DNA of 64,000 nucleotides from Escherichia phage 4E8: the sequence record OQ689734.1; one strand, written 5' to 3'. Below are positions 42,304 to 47,200 of the stretch, one piece after another; within the stretch, counting starts at the first letter, position 1; every line of letters begins with the position of its first letter. The notes beneath the pieces were generated by a model that saw only the letters and a list, made by a program, of their open reading frames with translations, ran no database searches and had not been told where the DNA came from. The position numbers were made by a program, and so were the translations under genes.

Positions 42304-43539
42304 TTACAGAGTTACTGCTACTTCGCTACCTTCAACACTGACAGACTCTAACTTGCGAGGGTTATGAATCTGGACTGGATTGACCGGAACGTTCCAACCA
42401 CTGCGGTAGAAGTTACGACCATCACAGAACAGGATGACATTGGCAGACATTGCATTCGGTTGCAGGTTGTTGTGGACATGACGGATATTTGCAATCCAGT
42501 AGCCACGAGACAAAGTGTAGCCAGTAGGTGCATTACGAATAGTTTGAGTATTCATCTGACCTTCCAGTTGCATTTCTTCAGGAACCACATCAACTGAATC
42601 AATCGGCTGTGCTACTTGTCCTTCCAGTGCAAAGTTTTCATCATCAGCACTTTCAATATCATCCACCAACTCACCGTCTCCATCTTCAATCGGAGTCTGG
42701 TAAACCACTTTATACTGAGGAGTATAGAGAGGGTTCTGAGCTTTAACAAACTCAAGAATGTTATGACGGTAGGTATCCAGAGTTGTACCAGTCAGGCCCG
42801 GTGCTGTATTAACTTCCAGTACCCACGCTTCTTGACCTTTGGTGATAATATCAACTGCACCGAAATCCAGACCCATTGATTCAACAGCTTTCACCGCATT
42901 GATCAGAGAGGCGTCATTCGGAGCATCTGTGAAGGAGCTTGAGTAAACCCAGCCAGTGTGGTGATTACGAATATCTTCACGATAGTTAGGGTCTTCTCGA
43001 TAACCGTTGCGACGAATCTTCTTCTGAACATAGGTGATTACACCTTTGAACACATGGACACGCCACTCACGACGTGGGCCTTGAATGCCTTTAGTGTACA
43101 GTTCAGCTCGACCAAGACCATCACCCGGTTCTACAACAACAATGCCCGAACCAGAGTGACCAGTCAGCTCATGGCGCTCATACACAATATTACCAGTGTT
43201 TGACCACTCTTGAGCAGTCTCTTGAACATCTGTGTATTCCACAGTTTTAACACCTGCTTGGTCCATCACGCTGAAAGCACGACGTTTGTTCGCTGCCATA
43301 TGTAAGGCTGCGGTACGGTTAAGGACGGTTGCAGAACCAAAGAATGATTCAGGATAGCGACGGTTCCCGTAGTTAACAACCACATCACCTTCACGAGAAC
43401 GCCAGCGGCTATTCTCTGAAAGAAGACCCATCACGTTAGCATTGATGCGTTCATCACGGATAGTATCACTGATAGCAGATACTAGAGCGTTAACAGAATC
43501 AGACGGGCCATACGGAAGAACACGGATACGAGTAGTCAT
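42304..43539 (-). CDS. ATP-grasp ligase (RimK / glutathione-synthetase-like)
   Basis: EWRVHVFKGVITYV and GLDFGAVDIITKGQEAWVLEVNTAPGL match the ATP-grasp C-terminal signature. Confidence 0.7.
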   Translation of the reverse strand: MTTRIRVLPYGPSDSVNALVSAISDTIRDERINANVMGLLSENSRWRSREGDVVVNYGNRRYPESFFGSATVLNRTAALHMAANKRRAFSVMDQAGVKTVEYTDVQETAQEWSNTGNIVYERHELTGHSGSGIVVVEPGDGLGRAELYTKGIQGPRREWRVHVFKGVITYVQKKIRRNGYREDPNYREDIRNHHTGWVYSSSFTDAPNDASLINAVKAVESMGLDFGAVDIITKGQEAWVLEVNTAPGLTGTTLDTYRHNILEFVKAQNPLYTPQYKVVYQTPIEDGDGELVDDIESADDENFALEGQVAQPIDSVDVVPEEMQLEGQMNTQTIRNAPTGYTLSRGYWIANIRHVHNNLQPNAMSANVILFCDGRNFYRSGWNVPVNPVQIHNPRKLESVSVEGSEVAVTL

Positions 43540-43988: not shown

Positions 43989-45992
43989 TTAGTGTTTACC
44001 TTTACAGTAATCTGAATTACAGATCACCCTGTTTTCTTTGTTCAGTGAGCAAGTTTCTGCATCACGCCACGGAATTTGTTTATAACAGACTGCACAAAAC
44101 CCAATTGAAGTCCAGAGGGCTTTTGTAAACTCAGCTGTTCGTTGTCCATCGTAACTGACAACTGTTTTTCGGAGAGAGGTTGACTTTTCTGGAAATGTCT
44201 CCGCTTTCTCAGCGGGTACCTCCTTTGGGGCATTCTTTGGACCATAAACAGAGATGGCATAAGTATCACCACCACGTTTTTCCAAATACGAATTAGGAAC
44301 ATCTGCAAGTGTGATGTCCCCTGAACGTTTTGCTGAGCTGACCATTACAATCATACGGCTAAGCATACGTTCATCAACACGAACAGCTACTTCAGGACGA
44401 CGTGGGTTGGTTGTGTCTACTGCTTTAGTCCAAATATAACCTTCAGATAGAGTAACATTCTTTACTTTATCTTTGATTTCTTTGGAGCAGATATAACAAA
44501 CGTCTTCACCACGAAGTTTACTCATTTCATTGTCAAACTCGAAATCAGTCTTGACTTCACCACAGATAGCACATACACCCAAAGGCACATCTTCTTCCTC
44601 TTCAGAGGTTTTAGATAACGCTTCGAAGCATTCTGGATGCCAGTATGCCTGATAAGCAAACACAGCCTTACGAGCATCTTTCCAGTCAATGTGCTTATCA
44701 CAACCACCACAGTCACCATGAGAGTGAGATTCCCAGAACTTACGAGTGACTTCTACACCATTCTTAGTGATGAAGGAGTCCTCTGCATCAAAAGGGATAT
44801 CATCATCAAAATCAGCAGTAGTGCTTTGAGGCTCCTTATCTGTAGCATCAACAAACAGCCCTGAAGTTAGTACGAGGCGAATCATACTGTCCACTTCGGA
44901 GATACAAGCAATCGTCCCGCGATATACTACCTTTGGGTTTTCAAGAGCCTTAAGATATTCATCTTTGGCTACGTTGTGAACATCCCCTTCGACATACTCT
45001 TGAGCTTTATCATCGTAGATGTAACCAACCATCTTACCACGATCTGTGTTGTTATAAGCATGGAACTCGTGAGGAATAATATCCACACGACCATCACGAC
45101 GATAAGGAAGACCACGATCGGCAGCCAGTTTGTTCTGGTCTTCAATCGCTTTACGACGACGAATGTCTCCGCTTGTCACGCCGGGCTTGTCGTCTTTGTT
45201 TCCGTAAATGTCGCTTGTGCTGCTGCTTGATTTGTTTGTCTGTTGGTTCTGATAAAGAGAGGAGTTCGAGTAATAGCCGCCCCAGCGACTCGTTACCGTA
45301 AAAACCGGAAGCGTGTGCTCCACCTCTTGAACCAGAGTCATACGACTGTTAGACACATCAAAGATATACTCAGTTCCCACTTTACATTCGAAGTGGTCAT
45401 TGATACGGTTCTTATGGGACTTAGAACGCTCTAAAATCCACATAAGCATAGCTTCTTCAGAAGCTCCAAACCAATCCAAACCACAGCGGGCTAGGTGGAA
45501 AGGACGCTCATCATTACGGATAATGTGAAGTGTGTTGTCTTTAGCATCATGCCAAATCAAAGTGAATGCACCATCCAGTTTTTGGATAGTCTCTGCTGCT
45601 CCAATGGTGTTAATTGAGTGGCAGATGTTTTCACTATCAACTTCGAAACGCTTACTGTCAGGAAGGAGATCTTGATCTAACAGGGTTCCATTATGAACCA
45701 GAGTAATATCCCCGTAAGTAAATGGGTGAGCATTTCGAGCATTGACAGCCCCACGAGTGGCATGTCGGCTGTGACCAACAATCCACGAAGGAGGAACTAC
45801 GTAGTTCGTAAGCCCTTTGGTAATATTTGTATATTCTGTCTGGAGCATAAAAGCATAAGAAGGAAGAGCTTCTTTATAAGAGAAGACTTGCTTTTCACCT
45901 TTACGCTGACCAAACACACCAGTTGAGTGCTGTCCACGGAAAACACCAGCATACAGAAGTTGGTTGAAAATGTCCAAATCTGCTGAGGTCAT
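43989..45992 (-). CDS. class-II (Ntn) glutamine amidotransferase domain fused to a Cys-rich zinc-ribbon C-terminal region, 667 aa
   Basis: FRGQHSTGV and HSRHATRG...NAHPF...LVHNGTL GATase-II motifs; several CxxC pairs in C-terminal half; true start is probably ATT at 46020-46022 (see findings). Confidence 0.75.
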   Translation of the reverse strand: MTSADLDIFNQLLYAGVFRGQHSTGVFGQRKGEKQVFSYKEALPSYAFMLQTEYTNITKGLTNYVVPPSWIVGHSRHATRGAVNARNAHPFTYGDITLVHNGTLLDQDLLPDSKRFEVDSENICHSINTIGAAETIQKLDGAFTLIWHDAKDNTLHIIRNDERPFHLARCGLDWFGASEEAMLMWILERSKSHKNRINDHFECKVGTEYIFDVSNSRMTLVQEVEHTLPVFTVTSRWGGYYSNSSLYQNQQTNKSSSSTSDIYGNKDDKPGVTSGDIRRRKAIEDQNKLAADRGLPYRRDGRVDIIPHEFHAYNNTDRGKMVGYIYDDKAQEYVEGDVHNVAKDEYLKALENPKVVYRGTIACISEVDSMIRLVLTSGLFVDATDKEPQSTTADFDDDIPFDAEDSFITKNGVEVTRKFWESHSHGDCGGCDKHIDWKDARKAVFAYQAYWHPECFEALSKTSEEEEDVPLGVCAICGEVKTDFEFDNEMSKLRGEDVCYICSKEIKDKVKNVTLSEGYIWTKAVDTTNPRRPEVAVRVDERMLSRMIVMVSSAKRSGDITLADVPNSYLEKRGGDTYAISVYGPKNAPKEVPAEKAETFPEKSTSLRKTVVSYDGQRTAEFTKALWTSIGFCAVCYKQIPWRDAETCSLNKENRVICNSDYCKGKH

Positions 45993-46099
45993 GTTGCCGC
46001 CAGCTAATACGATACCACAAATTTTCTAATCCACCTGAAGGGTAAACCCTTTCATCTAATTAACCTTTAAATGCGCCCTGTATAAGAGCGCCCGTTGTG

Positions 46100-47200
46100 T
46101 TACAGCAGTCGTTCTAATTGCATTTCCAGATGGTCTGGAATATAACCAGTGACGTTATCATCACTGCTACCTGATTCACGCATCAATGCAAACATGTGAC
46201 GAATTTCACGAACCGTTGCGATTCGAGTGCTTTCAATCTGAGGGGTGTAGTAGGTCATGATCTCTTCGTAGACACTGTTGGCATTACCGCGCACATATCC
46301 CAAGAAACCATAGAAGTCATTCATATCACGTAAGTTGATAAGGACTTCACCATCAGGGCCAGTCTGTTGCACACGAACACGACCAACCAAAGTTACAGAT
46401 TGCTCACGACAGAAGAGAATATCACGAGCAAGACGATACCCTTCAGTGAGATCACTGTCTCTTGGAGTATAGTCTAGGGGTAGATGTTGAATCATAGGAG
46501 CGAAGCGCAGCTCATTCAACTTCTCAACATAAGCTTCATTGTCTAAATCTGCATATTCAACAGCCAGTTTCTTGAGAACCAAGAAGCGGTTGACCAGATT
46601 CAGAAGTTGGCTCTTTTTCCACTTCGGCTCTGAGATACGGAACTCAACAGAACCAAATTGAGATAGAGGCAAAAGATTAAGGGAGGTATATTTATCCCAG
46701 CTATTAACAAGAGAGTGGAAGAAAGCTTCCCCGTCTCGGTTGAACGCTGACGAAGCATTCATAACTTGTGCTTGAACGACAGCAAAAGCTGGACAGAAGT
46801 TGCTACGATAGCGATGGTATCCAGAACATTTGAACATCATCTTTTCATAGAACGTCCATCCAAGAATAACTTTCTTAAGGATATTACTATCAGCGTCACG
46901 CATATCCATATGAACGTGAGTGGAGCAGCGCCAAGTTCCCTCGGCTCCAGAATCCTGTACTGCTTCACTCAGATTGTTAATAGCACGAAGTAATTCTTCA
47001 CCGTTGTAAGGTCGTGCACATACTAATTCACAACCATCACGAAGAGAGCCATCTTCAGTACAAACCCACATATCAGCGTCAATGTCAGTTGTACCTTCGA
47101 CTTCTAACTCAATACCAACACCACACTGAAAAGCAATACTTGGATGCGGTTCAGATAAGCGAGGGTTACGGTATCCAAAAACTTGTGCTACGGTTGTCAT
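46100..47200 (-). CDS. GCS / glutamine-synthetase-like amidoligase (COOH-NH2 ligase type)
   Basis: GVGIELEVEG ... DGSLRDGCELV ... STHVHMD pattern typical of the amidoligase / GCS2 superfamily. Confidence 0.6.
   Translation of the reverse strand: MTTVAQVFGYRNPRLSEPHPSIAFQCGVGIELEVEGTTDIDADMWVCTEDGSLRDGCELVCARPYNGEELLRAINNLSEAVQDSGAEGTWRCSTHVHMDMRDADSNILKKVILGWTFYEKMMFKCSGYHRYRSNFCPAFAVVQAQVMNASSAFNRDGEAFFHSLVNSWDKYTSLNLLPLSQFGSVEFRISEPKWKKSQLLNLVNRFLVLKKLAVEYADLDNEAYVEKLNELRFAPMIQHLPLDYTPRDSDLTEGYRLARDILFCREQSVTLVGRVRVQQTGPDGEVLINLRDMNDFYGFLGYVRGNANSVYEEIMTYYTPQIESTRIATVREIRHMFALMRESGSSDDNVTGYIPDHLEMQLERLL

What the first reader, a model, noticed from the sequence alone, without database searches (positions are those of the whole stretch)
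45990..46045. The amidotransferase appears to start at a non-canonical AUU codon so that the catalytic Cys becomes residue 1
The annotated ATG at 45990-45992 gives MTSADLD..., which lacks the N-terminal Cys nucleophile every class-II GATase needs. Reading the same frame upstream gives stop(TAG)-AAA-ATT-TGT-GGT-ATC-GTA-TTA-GCT-GGC-GGC-AAC-ATG, i.e. K-I-C-G-I-V-L-A-G-G-N-M. The CGIV... stretch is the classic GATase-II N-terminus (compare MCGIVG in PurF and GlmS). The only codon between the stop and the Cys is ATT, and it sits 8 nt after an AGGTGG Shine-Dalgarno-like sequence. Either translation starts at AUU, or the enzyme is a dead glutaminase, or there is a sequence error at this codon.
Basis: seen in the sequence. 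Interest (0 to 1): 0.75.

Follow-up and report, generated by a model that had tools for sequence, protein, structure and literature searches.

The report
Phage amidotransferase gene starts at AUU
This phage enzyme gene almost certainly begins at the rare start codon AUU, not at the downstream ATG that most databases use, which restores the cysteine the enzyme needs as its first residue; rare AUU/AUC starts, usually with a strong ribosome-binding site and often an RNA hairpin next to it, recur in many related phage genes.

Summary
The window is a phiEco32-like coliphage. All 96 deposited relatives carry the ATT and its leader at 100% identity. In two sister genera the window's internal ATG is absent, yet the C-G-I-V-L-A-G-G codons persist with synonymous changes. 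Distant homologues start ATG-TGT-GG (M-C-G). Profile and fold comparisons place this Cys on Cys1 of GlmS/PurF. Sequencing error and a "dead" enzyme are therefore excluded, and initiation at AUU followed by Met removal is the best explanation (about 0.85). No experiment has tested it. It is not new as an annotation: phiEco32 (2008), SU10, LAMP and the BASEL phages already annotate this start, although most records truncate the gene. What appears new is the wider pattern. In 157 distinct leaders of this phage amidotransferase family (a biased sample), 38 use ATT/ATC directly before the Cys. These leaders have stronger Shine-Dalgarno sequences and more SD-proximal hairpins, and they are less often coupled to the upstream gene. 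Near-identical genes differ by swapping the leader as a cassette. The window's leader is a 55-nt block that is invariant across genera.

The parts
43989..46022 (-). Full CDS of the class-II (Ntn) glutamine amidotransferase-like protein read from the ATT. It is 677 codons plus the stop. The mature protein is predicted to be 676 aa beginning with Cys.
   Evidence: ORF table and translation. The length is identical to the Bas87_0079 CDS, which starts at the ATT. PHROG 4736 scores E=6.5e-183.
46020..46022 (-). ATT, the proposed initiation codon (AUU).
   Evidence: It is invariant in 96/96 relatives. It is aligned to the ATG of distant homologues. No other near-cognate codon lies between the TAG and the Cys.
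46017..46019 (-). TGT, the catalytic N-terminal nucleophile Cys. It is residue 2 of the primary product and residue 1 after Met removal.
   Evidence: It is an invariant column in the family alignments. It aligns to Cys1 of 1xff. It lies at the start of strand 1 in a model with pLDDT 94.
45315..46019 (-). N-terminal Ntn glutaminase domain, about 235 residues.
   Evidence: Pfam GATase_6 scores 54.5 bits against a cut-off of 27. The family profile hits GlmS at E=2.6e-22. Foldseek hits 1xff at E=1.7e-14 with TM 0.70.
46031..46036 (-). Shine-Dalgarno sequence AGGTGG, 8 nt upstream of the ATT.
   Evidence: Read directly from the sequence. Duplex energy with the 16S 3' end is -5.9 kcal/mol.
46023..46030 (-). 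A/U-rich spacer ATTAGAAA. It contains the in-frame TAG (46028-46026) that closes the frame 3 nt before the ATT.
   Evidence: The stop, 3-nt gap and AUU geometry matches thrS-infC (PMC3592434).
46036..46054 (-). Small hairpin UGAA(A)GGG-UUUA-CCCUUCA that abuts the SD. Its 5' arm includes the U and G of the mini-ORF AUG and the ancestral SD-like GAAAGG.
   Evidence: Present in the MFE fold. The segment ΔG is -6.1 kcal/mol. SD-proximal hairpins are enriched in AUH leaders of the family.
46026..46055 (-). In-frame 9-codon mini-ORF ATG AAA GGG TTT ACC CTT CAG GTG GAT TAG (MKGFTLQVD*). It is probably incidental.
   Evidence: Its ATG is ancestral leader sequence that is also present, out of frame, in GAP52, and it is paired in the hairpin.
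46015..46069 (-). A 55-nt block that is invariant across genera. It covers the whole translation initiation region from -47 to +8 relative to the A of the ATT.
   Evidence: It is the longest invariant run in a five-genome alignment at 70-73% pairwise identity; the next longest is 21 nt. It is 100% identical in 96 records.
46073..46091 (-). Terminator-like hairpin GCGCUCU-UAUAC-AGGGCGC after the amidoligase gene. It has no U-tract.
   Evidence: Present in the fold. It is 100% paired in 8 genomes with 2 compensatory pairs.
45990..45992 (-). Internal ATG (Met11 of the mature protein). Many deposited annotations wrongly use it as the start.
   Evidence: It is ATG only in the Suseptimavirus lineage and CTC/CTG in the other genera.
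46100..47200 (-). Upstream amidoligase gene (Amidoligase_2). Its stop lies 77 nt before the ATT, so the two genes are not translationally coupled.

Best explanation
Translation of the amidotransferase-like gene starts at AUU 46022-46020. The SD AGGUGG, 8 nt upstream, positions the 30S subunit. Initiator fMet-tRNA decodes the AUU, giving fMet-Cys-Gly-Ile-Val. Deformylase and methionine aminopeptidase then remove the fMet, since Cys is a permitted second residue, as in E. coli PurF, GlmS and AsnB. This exposes Cys1, the Ntn nucleophile.

The weak start codon appears to be selected, not merely tolerated. It keeps translation of this enzyme low and probably sensitive to IF3 or host physiology. A strong or optimally spaced SD, an A/U-rich spacer and a small hairpin abutting the SD surround it, and the whole region is frozen as a 55-nt invariant initiation region.

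Shown here: homology of the ATT to the family's start position, its conservation, the absence of any alternative start, the Ntn fold and the catalytic residues. Inferred: actual initiation at AUU, Met removal, the expression-limiting purpose, and any role of the hairpin.
For: (1) The ATT, the SD and 55 nt around them are identical in 96/96 phiEco32-like genomes. The surrounding 4 kb is only 70-73% identical, and the next-longest invariant run is 21 nt.

(2) A single T-to-G change would create ATG, and it is never seen. Meanwhile adjacent third positions vary: GGT/GGC, GCT/GCA, GGC/GGG/GGT/GGA, AAC/AAT.

(3) The internal ATG is absent in Kuravirus and Nieuwekanaalvirus.

(4) Homologues start ATG TGT GG, giving M-C-G.

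(5) The invariant residues are C, G, R29-G30, H84, R86, H99-P100, H110-N111-G112 and D129-S130. They align with the GlmS Cys1, R73, N98-G99 and D123 motifs at E=2.6e-22. The fold is confirmed: pLDDT 94.3, and 1xff at TM 0.70.

(6) The same solution occurs elsewhere in the family. Of 157 distinct leaders, 38 have ATT/ATC directly before the Cys, 6-9 nt after a GGAG-type SD, and most have no in-frame canonical start before the closing stop. This includes the cultured Pseudomonas phages O4, K4, Ty, IME180 and FBPa8.

(7) AUU/AUC initiation in E. coli is established for infC and pcnB, at roughly 4- to 20-fold below AUG (PMC3592434, PMC5499595). The infC initiation region GGAGGA-N7-AUU matches the phage cassettes.

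(8) The only tRNA in the window is Arg-TCT, so there is no suppressor.
Against: - There is no direct evidence. No N-terminal sequence, toeprint or ribosome profiling exists for any member, and the papers found do not discuss this start.
- AUU is a poor initiator, and the SD here is only moderate at -5.9 kcal/mol.
- An in-frame mini-ORF ends 3 nt upstream, so some initiation could be reinitiation rather than de novo.
- The purpose of the weak start (dose limitation or IF3 sensing) is inference.
- The hairpin association is statistical and was noticed post hoc. 13 of 38 AUH leaders lack a hairpin, and 16 of 118 canonical leaders have one.
Confidence: 0.85

Rival explanations
1. Termination-reinitiation. 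Ribosomes translate the 9-codon leader mini-ORF (46055-46026), terminate at UAG and restart at the AUU 3 nt downstream, as at the thrS-infC junction. The AUU would then be used mainly by post-termination ribosomes. This could coexist with de novo initiation.
For: The mini-ORF has an ATG with AAAGG 8 nt upstream, is in frame and is invariant in 96 genomes. The geometry UAG-AAA-AUU mirrors infC UAA-GGU-AUU. In reporters, such junctions get about equal contributions from reinitiation and de novo initiation, and the infC junction gave twice the output of a monocistronic AUU (PMC3592434).
Against: The mini-ORF exists only in the phiEco32 clade. Other AUH lineages have no such ORF. AUH genes are on average less coupled to an upstream gene than canonical ones: the median gap is 34.5 nt versus 11 nt, and the gap is 10 nt or less in 6/38 versus 50/103. 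The U and G of the mini-ORF AUG are paired in the hairpin. The ATGAAAGG motif is ancestral SD-region sequence found out of frame in GAP52.
Confidence: 0.15
2. Translation starts at the mini-ORF AUG and reads through the UAG. This would make a precursor with a 12-residue propeptide (MKGFTLQVD-X-K-I) that the Ntn domain removes autocatalytically, as B. subtilis PurF removes its 11-residue propeptide.
For: The mini-ORF is in frame with the enzyme. Ntn amidotransferases with self-cleaved propeptides are known; this rests on established knowledge of B. subtilis PurF (structure 1gph/1ao0 appears among the hits). One metagenomic relative (L025) has an in-frame GTG with no stop, which could give M-T-K-I-C.
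Against: It requires efficient amber readthrough in wild E. coli. No suppressor tRNA is encoded. Four other AUH lineages have no in-frame AUG/GUG/UUG upstream at all. The SD is positioned for the AUU, not for the mini-ORF.
Confidence: 0.02
3. Translation starts at the internal ATG 45992. The protein would lack Cys1 and be a catalytically dead glutaminase domain, and the upstream CGIV codons would be a relic.
For: ATG 45992 is the first canonical start, and many GenBank records use it. A minor truncated isoform cannot be excluded in this lineage.
Against: This ATG is CTC/CTG in Kuravirus and Nieuwekanaalvirus, where the next canonical starts lie 30-37 codons into conserved sequence. The 'relic' codons show purifying selection, with synonymous changes only. 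All catalytic residues of the domain are intact. A truncated protein would also lack strand 1 of the fold.
Confidence: 0.03
4. A sequencing or assembly error turned ATG into ATT.
For: None beyond the rarity of ATT starts.
Against: The identical ATT is present in 96/96 independently sequenced genomes from many laboratories and in 5 IMG/VR contigs.
Confidence: 0

Closest known systems
E. coli infC (IF3) AUU start
   Same: Both have an AUU start conserved in evolution and a GGAGG-type SD 7-8 nt upstream. Both have a stop codon 3 nt before the AUU: UAA GGU AUU in infC and UAG AAA AUU here (PMC3592434). In both cases the weak codon is expected to be discriminated against by IF3.
   Different: In infC the upstream stop belongs to a real, highly translated gene (thrS), and regulation is autogenous because IF3 senses its own AUU. 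Here the upstream ORF is a 9-codon leader ORF of doubtful function, the product is unrelated to translation, and IF3 dependence is untested. infC's nearest hairpin ends 8 nt before the SD rather than abutting it.
E. coli pcnB (poly(A) polymerase I) AUU start
   Same: Both use AUU as an inefficient start, to limit the dose of an enzyme that is harmful in excess. This rests on established knowledge (Binns & Masters 2002, cited in PMC3592434).
   Different: pcnB has no SD-adjacent hairpin and a 4-nt spacer. Dose limitation for the phage enzyme is inferred, not shown.
Class-II (Ntn) glutamine amidotransferases PurF, GlmS and AsnB
   Same: The fold is the same and so are the catalytic residues: Cys1, the Arg and Asp that bind glutamine, and the Asn-Gly oxyanion hole. 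All require the Cys to be the free N-terminus, achieved in E. coli by removal of the initiator Met.
   Different: The cellular enzymes use AUG, and B. subtilis PurF uses a cleaved propeptide. The phage protein has no SIS, PRTase or Asn-synthetase domain. Its roughly 440-residue C-terminal part is uncharacterised and Cys-rich.
phi32_83 of phage phiEco32 (EU330206 / NC_010324) and orthologues SU10_085, LAMP gp83, Bas86-93
   Same: They are orthologues at 82-99% identity with an identical leader. Their deposited CDS already begins at this ATT.
   Different: This is an annotation only. I found no published discussion or experiment. Most other records, about 5 in 6 of those listed, start the CDS downstream.
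Streptomyces sigR GTC start repressed by IF3 (PMC5472188)
   Same: Both are conserved non-canonical start codons proposed as a translational control point.
   Different: The codon, organism and gene class differ, and only sigR has experimental support.

Membership tests
Class-II (Ntn, PurF-type) glutamine amidotransferase domain | Cys as the first residue of the mature protein, directly after the initiator Met or a cleaved propeptide. | tested here: met
   TGT directly follows the ATT. It aligns to Cys1 of mature GlmS 1xff and to profile position 2. This is met only if translation starts at the ATT.
Class-II (Ntn, PurF-type) glutamine amidotransferase domain | Asn-Gly oxyanion hole, plus the Arg and Asp that bind the glutamine carboxylate and amino groups. 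| tested here: met
   H110-N111-G112, R86 and D129 are invariant in 25-36 homologues. They align with the GlmS HNG, HTRWATHG and DTE motifs.
Class-II (Ntn, PurF-type) glutamine amidotransferase domain | Four-layer alpha-beta-beta-alpha Ntn fold with the nucleophile at the start of a beta strand. | tested here: met
   The model has pLDDT 94.3 with strand 1 at residues 2-7. Foldseek returns GlmS, PurF, GFAT1, AsnS and EgtC at E from 1e-14 to 1e-10 with TM about 0.7.
Class-II (Ntn, PurF-type) glutamine amidotransferase domain | Curated family model hit above threshold. | tested here: met
   Pfam GATase_6 scores 54.5 bits against a cut-off of 27.
Class-II (Ntn, PurF-type) glutamine amidotransferase domain | Glutaminase activity coupled to an acceptor (synthase) domain through an ammonia channel. 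| not testable with these tools
   No known synthase domain was detected in residues ~245-677. Structural similarity to the Ntn hydrolase EgtC leaves open a hydrolase role rather than a transferase role.
Glucosamine-6-phosphate synthase (GlmS; 'L-glutamine-D-fructose-6-phosphate aminotransferase', the name in many records) | Two C-terminal SIS (sugar isomerase) domains. | tested here: not met
   Pfam finds only GATase_6/7/4 and a sub-threshold LIM match, with no SIS domain. PDB profile alignments stop at about residue 254. The GlmS name is not justified.
Genes initiated at AUU/AUC (infC/pcnB type) | AUH at the position homologous to the start codon of orthologues, with no in-frame canonical start between the upstream stop and the conserved N-terminus. 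| tested here: met
Genes initiated at AUU/AUC (infC/pcnB type) | Shine-Dalgarno sequence at functional spacing. | tested here: met
   AGGTGG lies 8 nt upstream. The family-wide AUH spacer median is 7 nt, and the SD ΔG median is -8.4 versus -6.1 kcal/mol for canonical starts.
Genes initiated at AUU/AUC (infC/pcnB type) | Phylogenetic conservation of the non-canonical codon. | tested here: met
   96/96 genomes across three or more genera. ATT/ATC interchange without reversion occurs within O4/FBPa8 and within L073/76/85.
Genes initiated at AUU/AUC (infC/pcnB type) | Experimentally determined N-terminus or initiation complex on the AUH. | not testable with these tools
   No data were found in the searchable literature.
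Genes initiated at AUU/AUC (infC/pcnB type) | Repression by IF3. | not testable with these tools
   Inferred from general IF3 discrimination against AUU/AUC (PMC5499595).

The most novel reading that the evidence does not exclude
AUU/AUC initiation is a recurrent, selected feature of this whole phage amidotransferase family. It is carried by a small exchangeable leader cassette: a hairpin ending 0-1 nt (sometimes about 8 nt) before a strong GGAGGA-type SD, then a 7-8 nt A/U-rich spacer, then AUH, then UGY GG. This cassette replaces 'coupled, canonical-start' leaders. It uncouples the enzyme from the upstream gene and sets a low translation rate that depends on IF3 or host state. The SD-adjacent hairpin would be a functional determinant that permits or tunes initiation at the non-canonical codon. 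That would be a natural, convergent design rule for AUH initiation, supported by about 40 independent examples.
Probability: 0.35. Interest if true: 0.75.

Novelty: new member of a known kind. Interest (0 to 1): 0.55.

Why it matters
1. Annotation. Gene callers never propose ATT/ATC. Most deposited phiEco32-like genomes, and Pseudomonas phages such as O4 and FBPa8, therefore carry a truncated protein without its catalytic Cys, which could be misread as an inactive enzyme. A simple rule fixes dozens of records: extend the CDS to the codon before the conserved TGY-GGN.

2. Translation biology. Conserved bacterial AUU/AUC starts are known from only a handful of genes (infC, pcnB). This family offers tens of natural AUH initiation regions with a shared architecture, and near-isogenic pairs that differ only in the leader. 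That makes it directly testable which mRNA features let ribosomes use AUH and how IF3 or host physiology modulates this.

3. Phage biology. The 55-nt frozen leader, in a region that is otherwise about 71% identical, says that the dose or timing of this enzyme matters a great deal. The enzyme belongs to an amidoligase/ATP-grasp/COOH-NH2-ligase cluster of unknown product.

Tried and rejected
- Sequencing error: rejected (96/96 genomes).
- Suppressor tRNA for UAG readthrough: none; the only tRNA is Arg-TCT.
- The leader as a recurring motif in the genome: it occurs only once.
- A phi32_gp36 promoter (tAATGTAtA) or a sigma-70 promoter in the leader: none.
- Rfam family: no match near threshold.
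- Global leader structure: the MFE is not better than shuffles (z=-0.35). Only local hairpins are meaningful, and the small one cannot be tested by covariation inside the clade because it is invariant.
- A stop codon 3-4 nt before the AUH as the end of an upstream gene (general coupling): true only for L091 in the discovery set, and coupling is rarer in AUH genes overall.
- Single-sequence PDB search with the N-domain: no hit. The family profile was needed.
- Other AUH-start genes in the window (SD + ATT/ATC/ATA + long ORF): 13 candidates, none convincing except the amidotransferase.
- Transcriptional slippage on AAAATTT creating AUG: considered and dismissed from the sequence, because adding or removing A or U cannot create AUG.
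- Savalia et al. 2008 (PMC2587145) could not be opened, so I cannot say whether the original paper comments on the ATT.
- Coaxial stacking of the hairpin on the SD-antiSD helix: considered, but the registers differ between cassettes, so it stays speculative.
Full report
**1. What is in the sequence**

The feature lies on the minus strand.
- The frame reads TAG (46028-46026), AAA, ATT (46022-46020), TGT (46019-46017), GGT ATC GTA TTA GCT GGC GGC AAC, then ATG (45992-45990). This translates as *-K-I-C-G-I-V-L-A-G-G-N-M-T-S-A-D-L.
- AGGTGG sits at 46036-46031, 8 nt before the ATT.
- From the ATT the ORF is 677 codons (43989-46022). From the ATG it is 667 codons.

**2. Origin and context**

The window is a phiEco32-like podovirus of E. 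coli (Gordonclarkvirinae). It is 99.8% identical here to vB_EcoP-101114UKE3, IME267 and Bas86/87.

The gene sits in the cluster typical of these phages:
- ATP-grasp protein at 42304-43539;
- the amidotransferase-like gene;
- Amidoligase_2 at 46100-47200;
- an unknown gene at 47197-47823;
- a phiEco32-type COOH-NH2 ligase at 47833-48684.

**3. The protein needs that Cys**

- Pfam GATase_6 is hit above threshold.
- In alignments of 25-36 homologues the invariant columns are C, G, R29-G30, H84, R86, H99-P100, H110-N111-G112 and D129-S130.
- A profile of the family hits E. coli GlmS at E=2.6e-22. The family Cys falls on residue 1 of the mature glutaminase-domain crystal chain 1xff. The HNG, R-x-A-T-x-G and D-S/T-E motifs are superposed.
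- An AlphaFold model of the first 241 residues (pLDDT 94.3, pTM 0.92) starts its first strand at the Cys.
- Foldseek returns GlmS, PurF, GFAT-1, asparagine synthetase and the Ntn hydrolase EgtC, with TM about 0.7.

It is a bona fide class-II/Ntn domain. It is not GlmS: there are no SIS domains, so the common product name is unjustified.

**4. Comparative evidence for the ATT**

(a) The 58-nt stretch covering the leader, the ATT and TGTGG is 100% identical in all 96 phiEco32-like records. This includes the lowest-ranked ones, which still match through the last base. A sequencing error is excluded.

(b) In Nieuwekanaalvirus (KBNP1711, EP335) and Kuravirus (phiEco32, O18-011, Bas90) the window's ATG is CTC or CTG. 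Their automatic annotations fall back to a GTG or ATG 30-37 codons downstream. Yet ATT TGT GG[T/C] ATC GTA TTA GC[T/A] GG[C/G/T] GG[C/T/A] is retained with third-position changes only. That stretch is translated, and the ATG is irrelevant.

(c) More distant homologues in Proteus, Vibrio, Cronobacter, Salmonella, Aeromonas, Pseudomonas and Pantoea phages start ATG TGT GG.. 39 of 42 database homologues begin M-C-G.

(d) A single T-to-G change would restore ATG, and it is never observed.

(e) No suppressor tRNA is encoded.

**5. The leader is extraordinary**

In a five-genome alignment of about 4.1 kb (pairwise identity 70-73%), the longest invariant run is 55 nt, at 46069-46015. The next longest is 21 nt. 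The block runs from -47 to +8 around the ATT, which is roughly a ribosome footprint.

It contains:
- a hairpin UGAA(A)GGG-UUUA-CCCUUCA (46054-46036) whose last base is the first A of the SD;
- the SD;
- the A/U-rich spacer;
- an in-frame 9-codon mini-ORF (46055-46026) that ends 3 nt before the ATT.

Upstream, a terminator-like hairpin (46091-46073) is 100% paired in eight genomes with two compensatory pairs.

The leader is unique in the window. It has no phage or sigma-70 promoter match (consensus from PMC8948821). It matches no Rfam family.

The 5' part of the leader, AAAGGTTAATTAGATGAAAGG, resembles the entire short leader of ATG-type relatives:
- GAP52: ...ATAGATGAAAGGATTTTTAGT ATG;
- contig L026: AAAGGTCTAATTTAAAGGAAAAGATA ATG.

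In those relatives AAAGG(A) is the SD. In the phiEco32 clade that old SD has become the 5' arm of the hairpin. About 27 further nucleotides supply the loop, the 3' arm, a new SD, the spacer and the ATT. This makes the mini-ORF's ATG look like inherited sequence rather than a designed upstream ORF.

**6. Not a new annotation**

The original phiEco32 record (EU330206, phi32_83), its RefSeq copy, SU10_085, LAMP gp83 and the BASEL phages Bas86-93 all start the CDS at this ATT. Most other records do not. I found no paper that discusses the start. The 2008 phiEco32 paper could not be opened.

**7. The unexpected part: it is a family habit**

*Discovery set.* Among 80 IMG/VR loci encoding relatives, the codon before the Cys is:
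- ATG in 69;
- ATT in 8 (5 of them phiEco32-like);
- ATC in 2;
- TTG in 1;
- GTG in none (with two alignment offsets corrected).

In L061, L076, L085 and L091 a stop closes the frame 4-14 codons upstream with no canonical start in between. Each AUH sits 7-8 nt after AGGAG, GGAGGA or GGAGGG. On a neighbour-joining tree the AUH genes fall in four or more places, each with an ATG sister.

*Cultured phages.* The Pseudomonas phages show the same thing. O4, K4, Ty and IME180 use ATC, and FBPa8 uses ATT. PPAT (ATG) and PSA11 (TTG) encode 99% identical N-domains behind a different leader. The deposited O4 and FBPa8 CDSs are truncated by 37 and 14 codons.

*Replication set.* Two further scans ranked around other subfamilies gave 82 previously unseen distinct leaders: 46 ATG, 22 ATT, 6 ATC, 6 TTG and 1 GTG.

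*Combined.* 38 of 157 distinct leaders (24%) are AUH, in 21 clusters at 60% or more identity.

*Caveat.* The later scans were centred on AUH-containing subfamilies, so 24% overestimates the family-wide rate. The first sample gave 12%, half of which was the phiEco32 clade.

**8. What goes with AUH**

Compared with canonical-start leaders, AUH leaders differ in three ways.

| Feature | AUH leaders | Canonical-start leaders | Test (call) |
|---|---|---|---|
| SD duplex energy, median | -8.4 kcal/mol | -6.1 kcal/mol | p=1.3e-5 (95) |
| Stable hairpin (ΔG -5 or lower) in -42..-10 | 25/38 | 16/118 | Fisher p=1.8e-9, odds ratio 12 (95) |
| Gap to upstream ORF, median | 34.5 nt | 11 nt | p=1.9e-4 (113) |
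| Gap of 10 nt or less | 6/38 | 50/103 | (113) |

The hairpin effect has three further supports:
- It was noticed post hoc in the discovery set, where the lineage-collapsed p ranged from 6e-5 to 8e-3 over six window definitions and a downstream control gave p=0.58.
- All five sister contrasts went the same way.
- It replicated in the unseen loci (p=2.5e-6 and 1.3e-5).

It is a tendency, not a rule.

In the commonest type the hairpin ends 0-1 nt before GGAGGA, followed by TAGNNNN, TAAAATT or TTAGAAA and then ATY. The stems differ completely in sequence between lineages: GCCC/GGGC, AACCUC/GAGGUU, AAAGC/GCUUU, CCUAGA/UCUAGG, GACUC/GAGUC.

Pairs of genes 96-99% identical in protein but different in start type differ by a leader swap whose junction is at the start codon. 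In L164 versus L163, a cassette of about 30 nt (hairpin + CGGAGGA + spacer + ATT) replaces GAGG + spacer + TTG behind the same upstream gene.

One unrelated member (L154) shares GGATTAGAAAATTTGTGG with the phiEco32 leader.

E. coli infC has the same core, GGAGGA-ATAAGGT-ATT, with a stop 3 nt before the AUU. pcnB has no hairpin.

**9. Mechanism**

*Shown:* the ATT is the homologue of the family's start codon. It is the only possible start that yields an active Ntn enzyme. It is under strong purifying selection together with its whole initiation region.

*Established knowledge:*
- Bacterial ribosomes initiate at AUU/AUC with fMet-tRNA, at a few percent to about 25% of AUG efficiency.
- IF3 discriminates against these codons.
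- Their use falls with nutrient limitation and ppGpp (PMC3592434, PMC5499595).
- Methionine aminopeptidase removes Met before Cys, as in E. coli PurF and GlmS.

*Inferred:*
- The weak codon limits or conditions synthesis of the enzyme.
- The strong SD, and possibly the hairpin, keep the 30S subunit on the site long enough to accept AUH, and insulate the site from upstream translation.
- The mini-ORF may add some reinitiation in this clade (about 0.15).

UAG readthrough with a propeptide (0.02) and a truncated dead enzyme (0.03) are unlikely.

**10. Verdict**

As a fact about this gene it is already in GenBank for the type phage, so the novelty of the core claim is low. It is another member of the small class of AUU-initiated genes.

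The family-wide recurrence of AUU/AUC, its association with strong SDs and SD-proximal hairpins, and its cassette-like exchange appear unreported. They are experimentally tractable and raise the interest to moderate.

Noticed in passing
window 46015-46069 (-): A 55-nt block covering the leader, the ATT and the first 8 coding bases is invariant across genera whose flanking genes are only 70-73% identical. It is 100% identical in 96 deposited genomes. The next-longest invariant run in about 4 kb is 21 nt.
   Followed up: yes
IMG/VR loci L061, L073, L076, L085, L091, L136, L153, L154, L164, L175, L180, L189, L207, L227, L258 and others: ATT or ATC sits directly before the catalytic Cys codon in 38 of 157 distinct leaders of this phage amidotransferase family, against 8 TTG and 1 GTG. 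They fall in 21 clusters at 60% or more identity. The sample is biased towards subfamilies that contain AUH.
   Followed up: yes
L108 (FBPa8), L109 (O4), L110 (PPAT), L111 (PSA11); also K4, Ty, IME180: Cultured Pseudomonas Paundecimvirus phages split into two leader types. One is hairpin + CGGAGGA + TAAAATT + ATT/ATC. The other is GGAGGT + ATG/TTG. The N-domains behind them are 99% identical. The deposited O4 and FBPa8 CDSs are truncated by 37 and 14 codons and lack the Cys.
   Followed up: yes
L164 vs L163, L215 vs L222, L206 vs L208: Near-identical genes (downstream DNA 90-98% identical) have unrelated sequence upstream of the start codon. The mosaic junction lies at the start codon. In L164 versus L163 only a cassette of about 30 nt differs.
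   Followed up: partly
all 157 leaders (loci L009-L271): AUH-start genes are less often translationally coupled to the upstream gene. The median gap is 34.5 nt versus 11 nt, and the gap is 10 nt or less in 6/38 versus 50/103.
   Followed up: partly
window 46073-46091 (-): A terminator-like hairpin follows the amidoligase gene. It is 100% paired in eight genomes with two compensatory pairs but has no U-tract. Its function is unknown: partial terminator, processing site or stabiliser.
   Followed up: partly
L025 1708-1725 (Logan contig, protein P0004): A 66%-identical relative reads TAG GTG ACT AAA ATT TGT GGC. It shares the AGGTG...AAAATTTGTGG core with the window, but an in-frame GTG could give a 4-residue propeptide, M-T-K-I, before the Cys.
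   Followed up: no
L047 / L147 (IMGVR_UViG_3300025276_000050): One family member begins ATG TGC TGT GG., giving M-C-C-G. It has two consecutive Cys at the N-terminus, so it is unclear which is the nucleophile.
   Followed up: no
window 43989-45290 (-), residues ~245-677 of the protein: The C-terminal two thirds has no Pfam domain beyond a sub-threshold LIM match. It contains several CxxC pairs (CGGC...C..C, CAIC...CYIC, CAVC...C..YC) that suggest zinc ribbons. There are no SIS domains, so the widespread product name 'L-glutamine-D-fructose-6-phosphate aminotransferase' is unsupported. Structural similarity to EgtC leaves a gamma-glutamyl hydrolase role open.
   Followed up: partly
L272 (E. coli MG1655 infC start, record 1800638): The infC initiation region GGAGGA-ATAAGGT-ATT has the same SD, the same 7-nt spacer and a stop inside the spacer, like the commonest phage AUH cassette (GGAGGA-TAGNNNN/TAAAATT-ATT).
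   Followed up: partly
window 54415-54491 (-): The window's single tRNA gene is tRNA-Arg with anticodon TCT.
   Followed up: no
window 46020-46014 (-): Overlapping the ATT are an out-of-frame TTG (+2) and GTG (+4) within ATTTGTGG. The TTG opens a frame of roughly 40 codons (counted by eye, not computed). They could compete for initiation.
   Followed up: no
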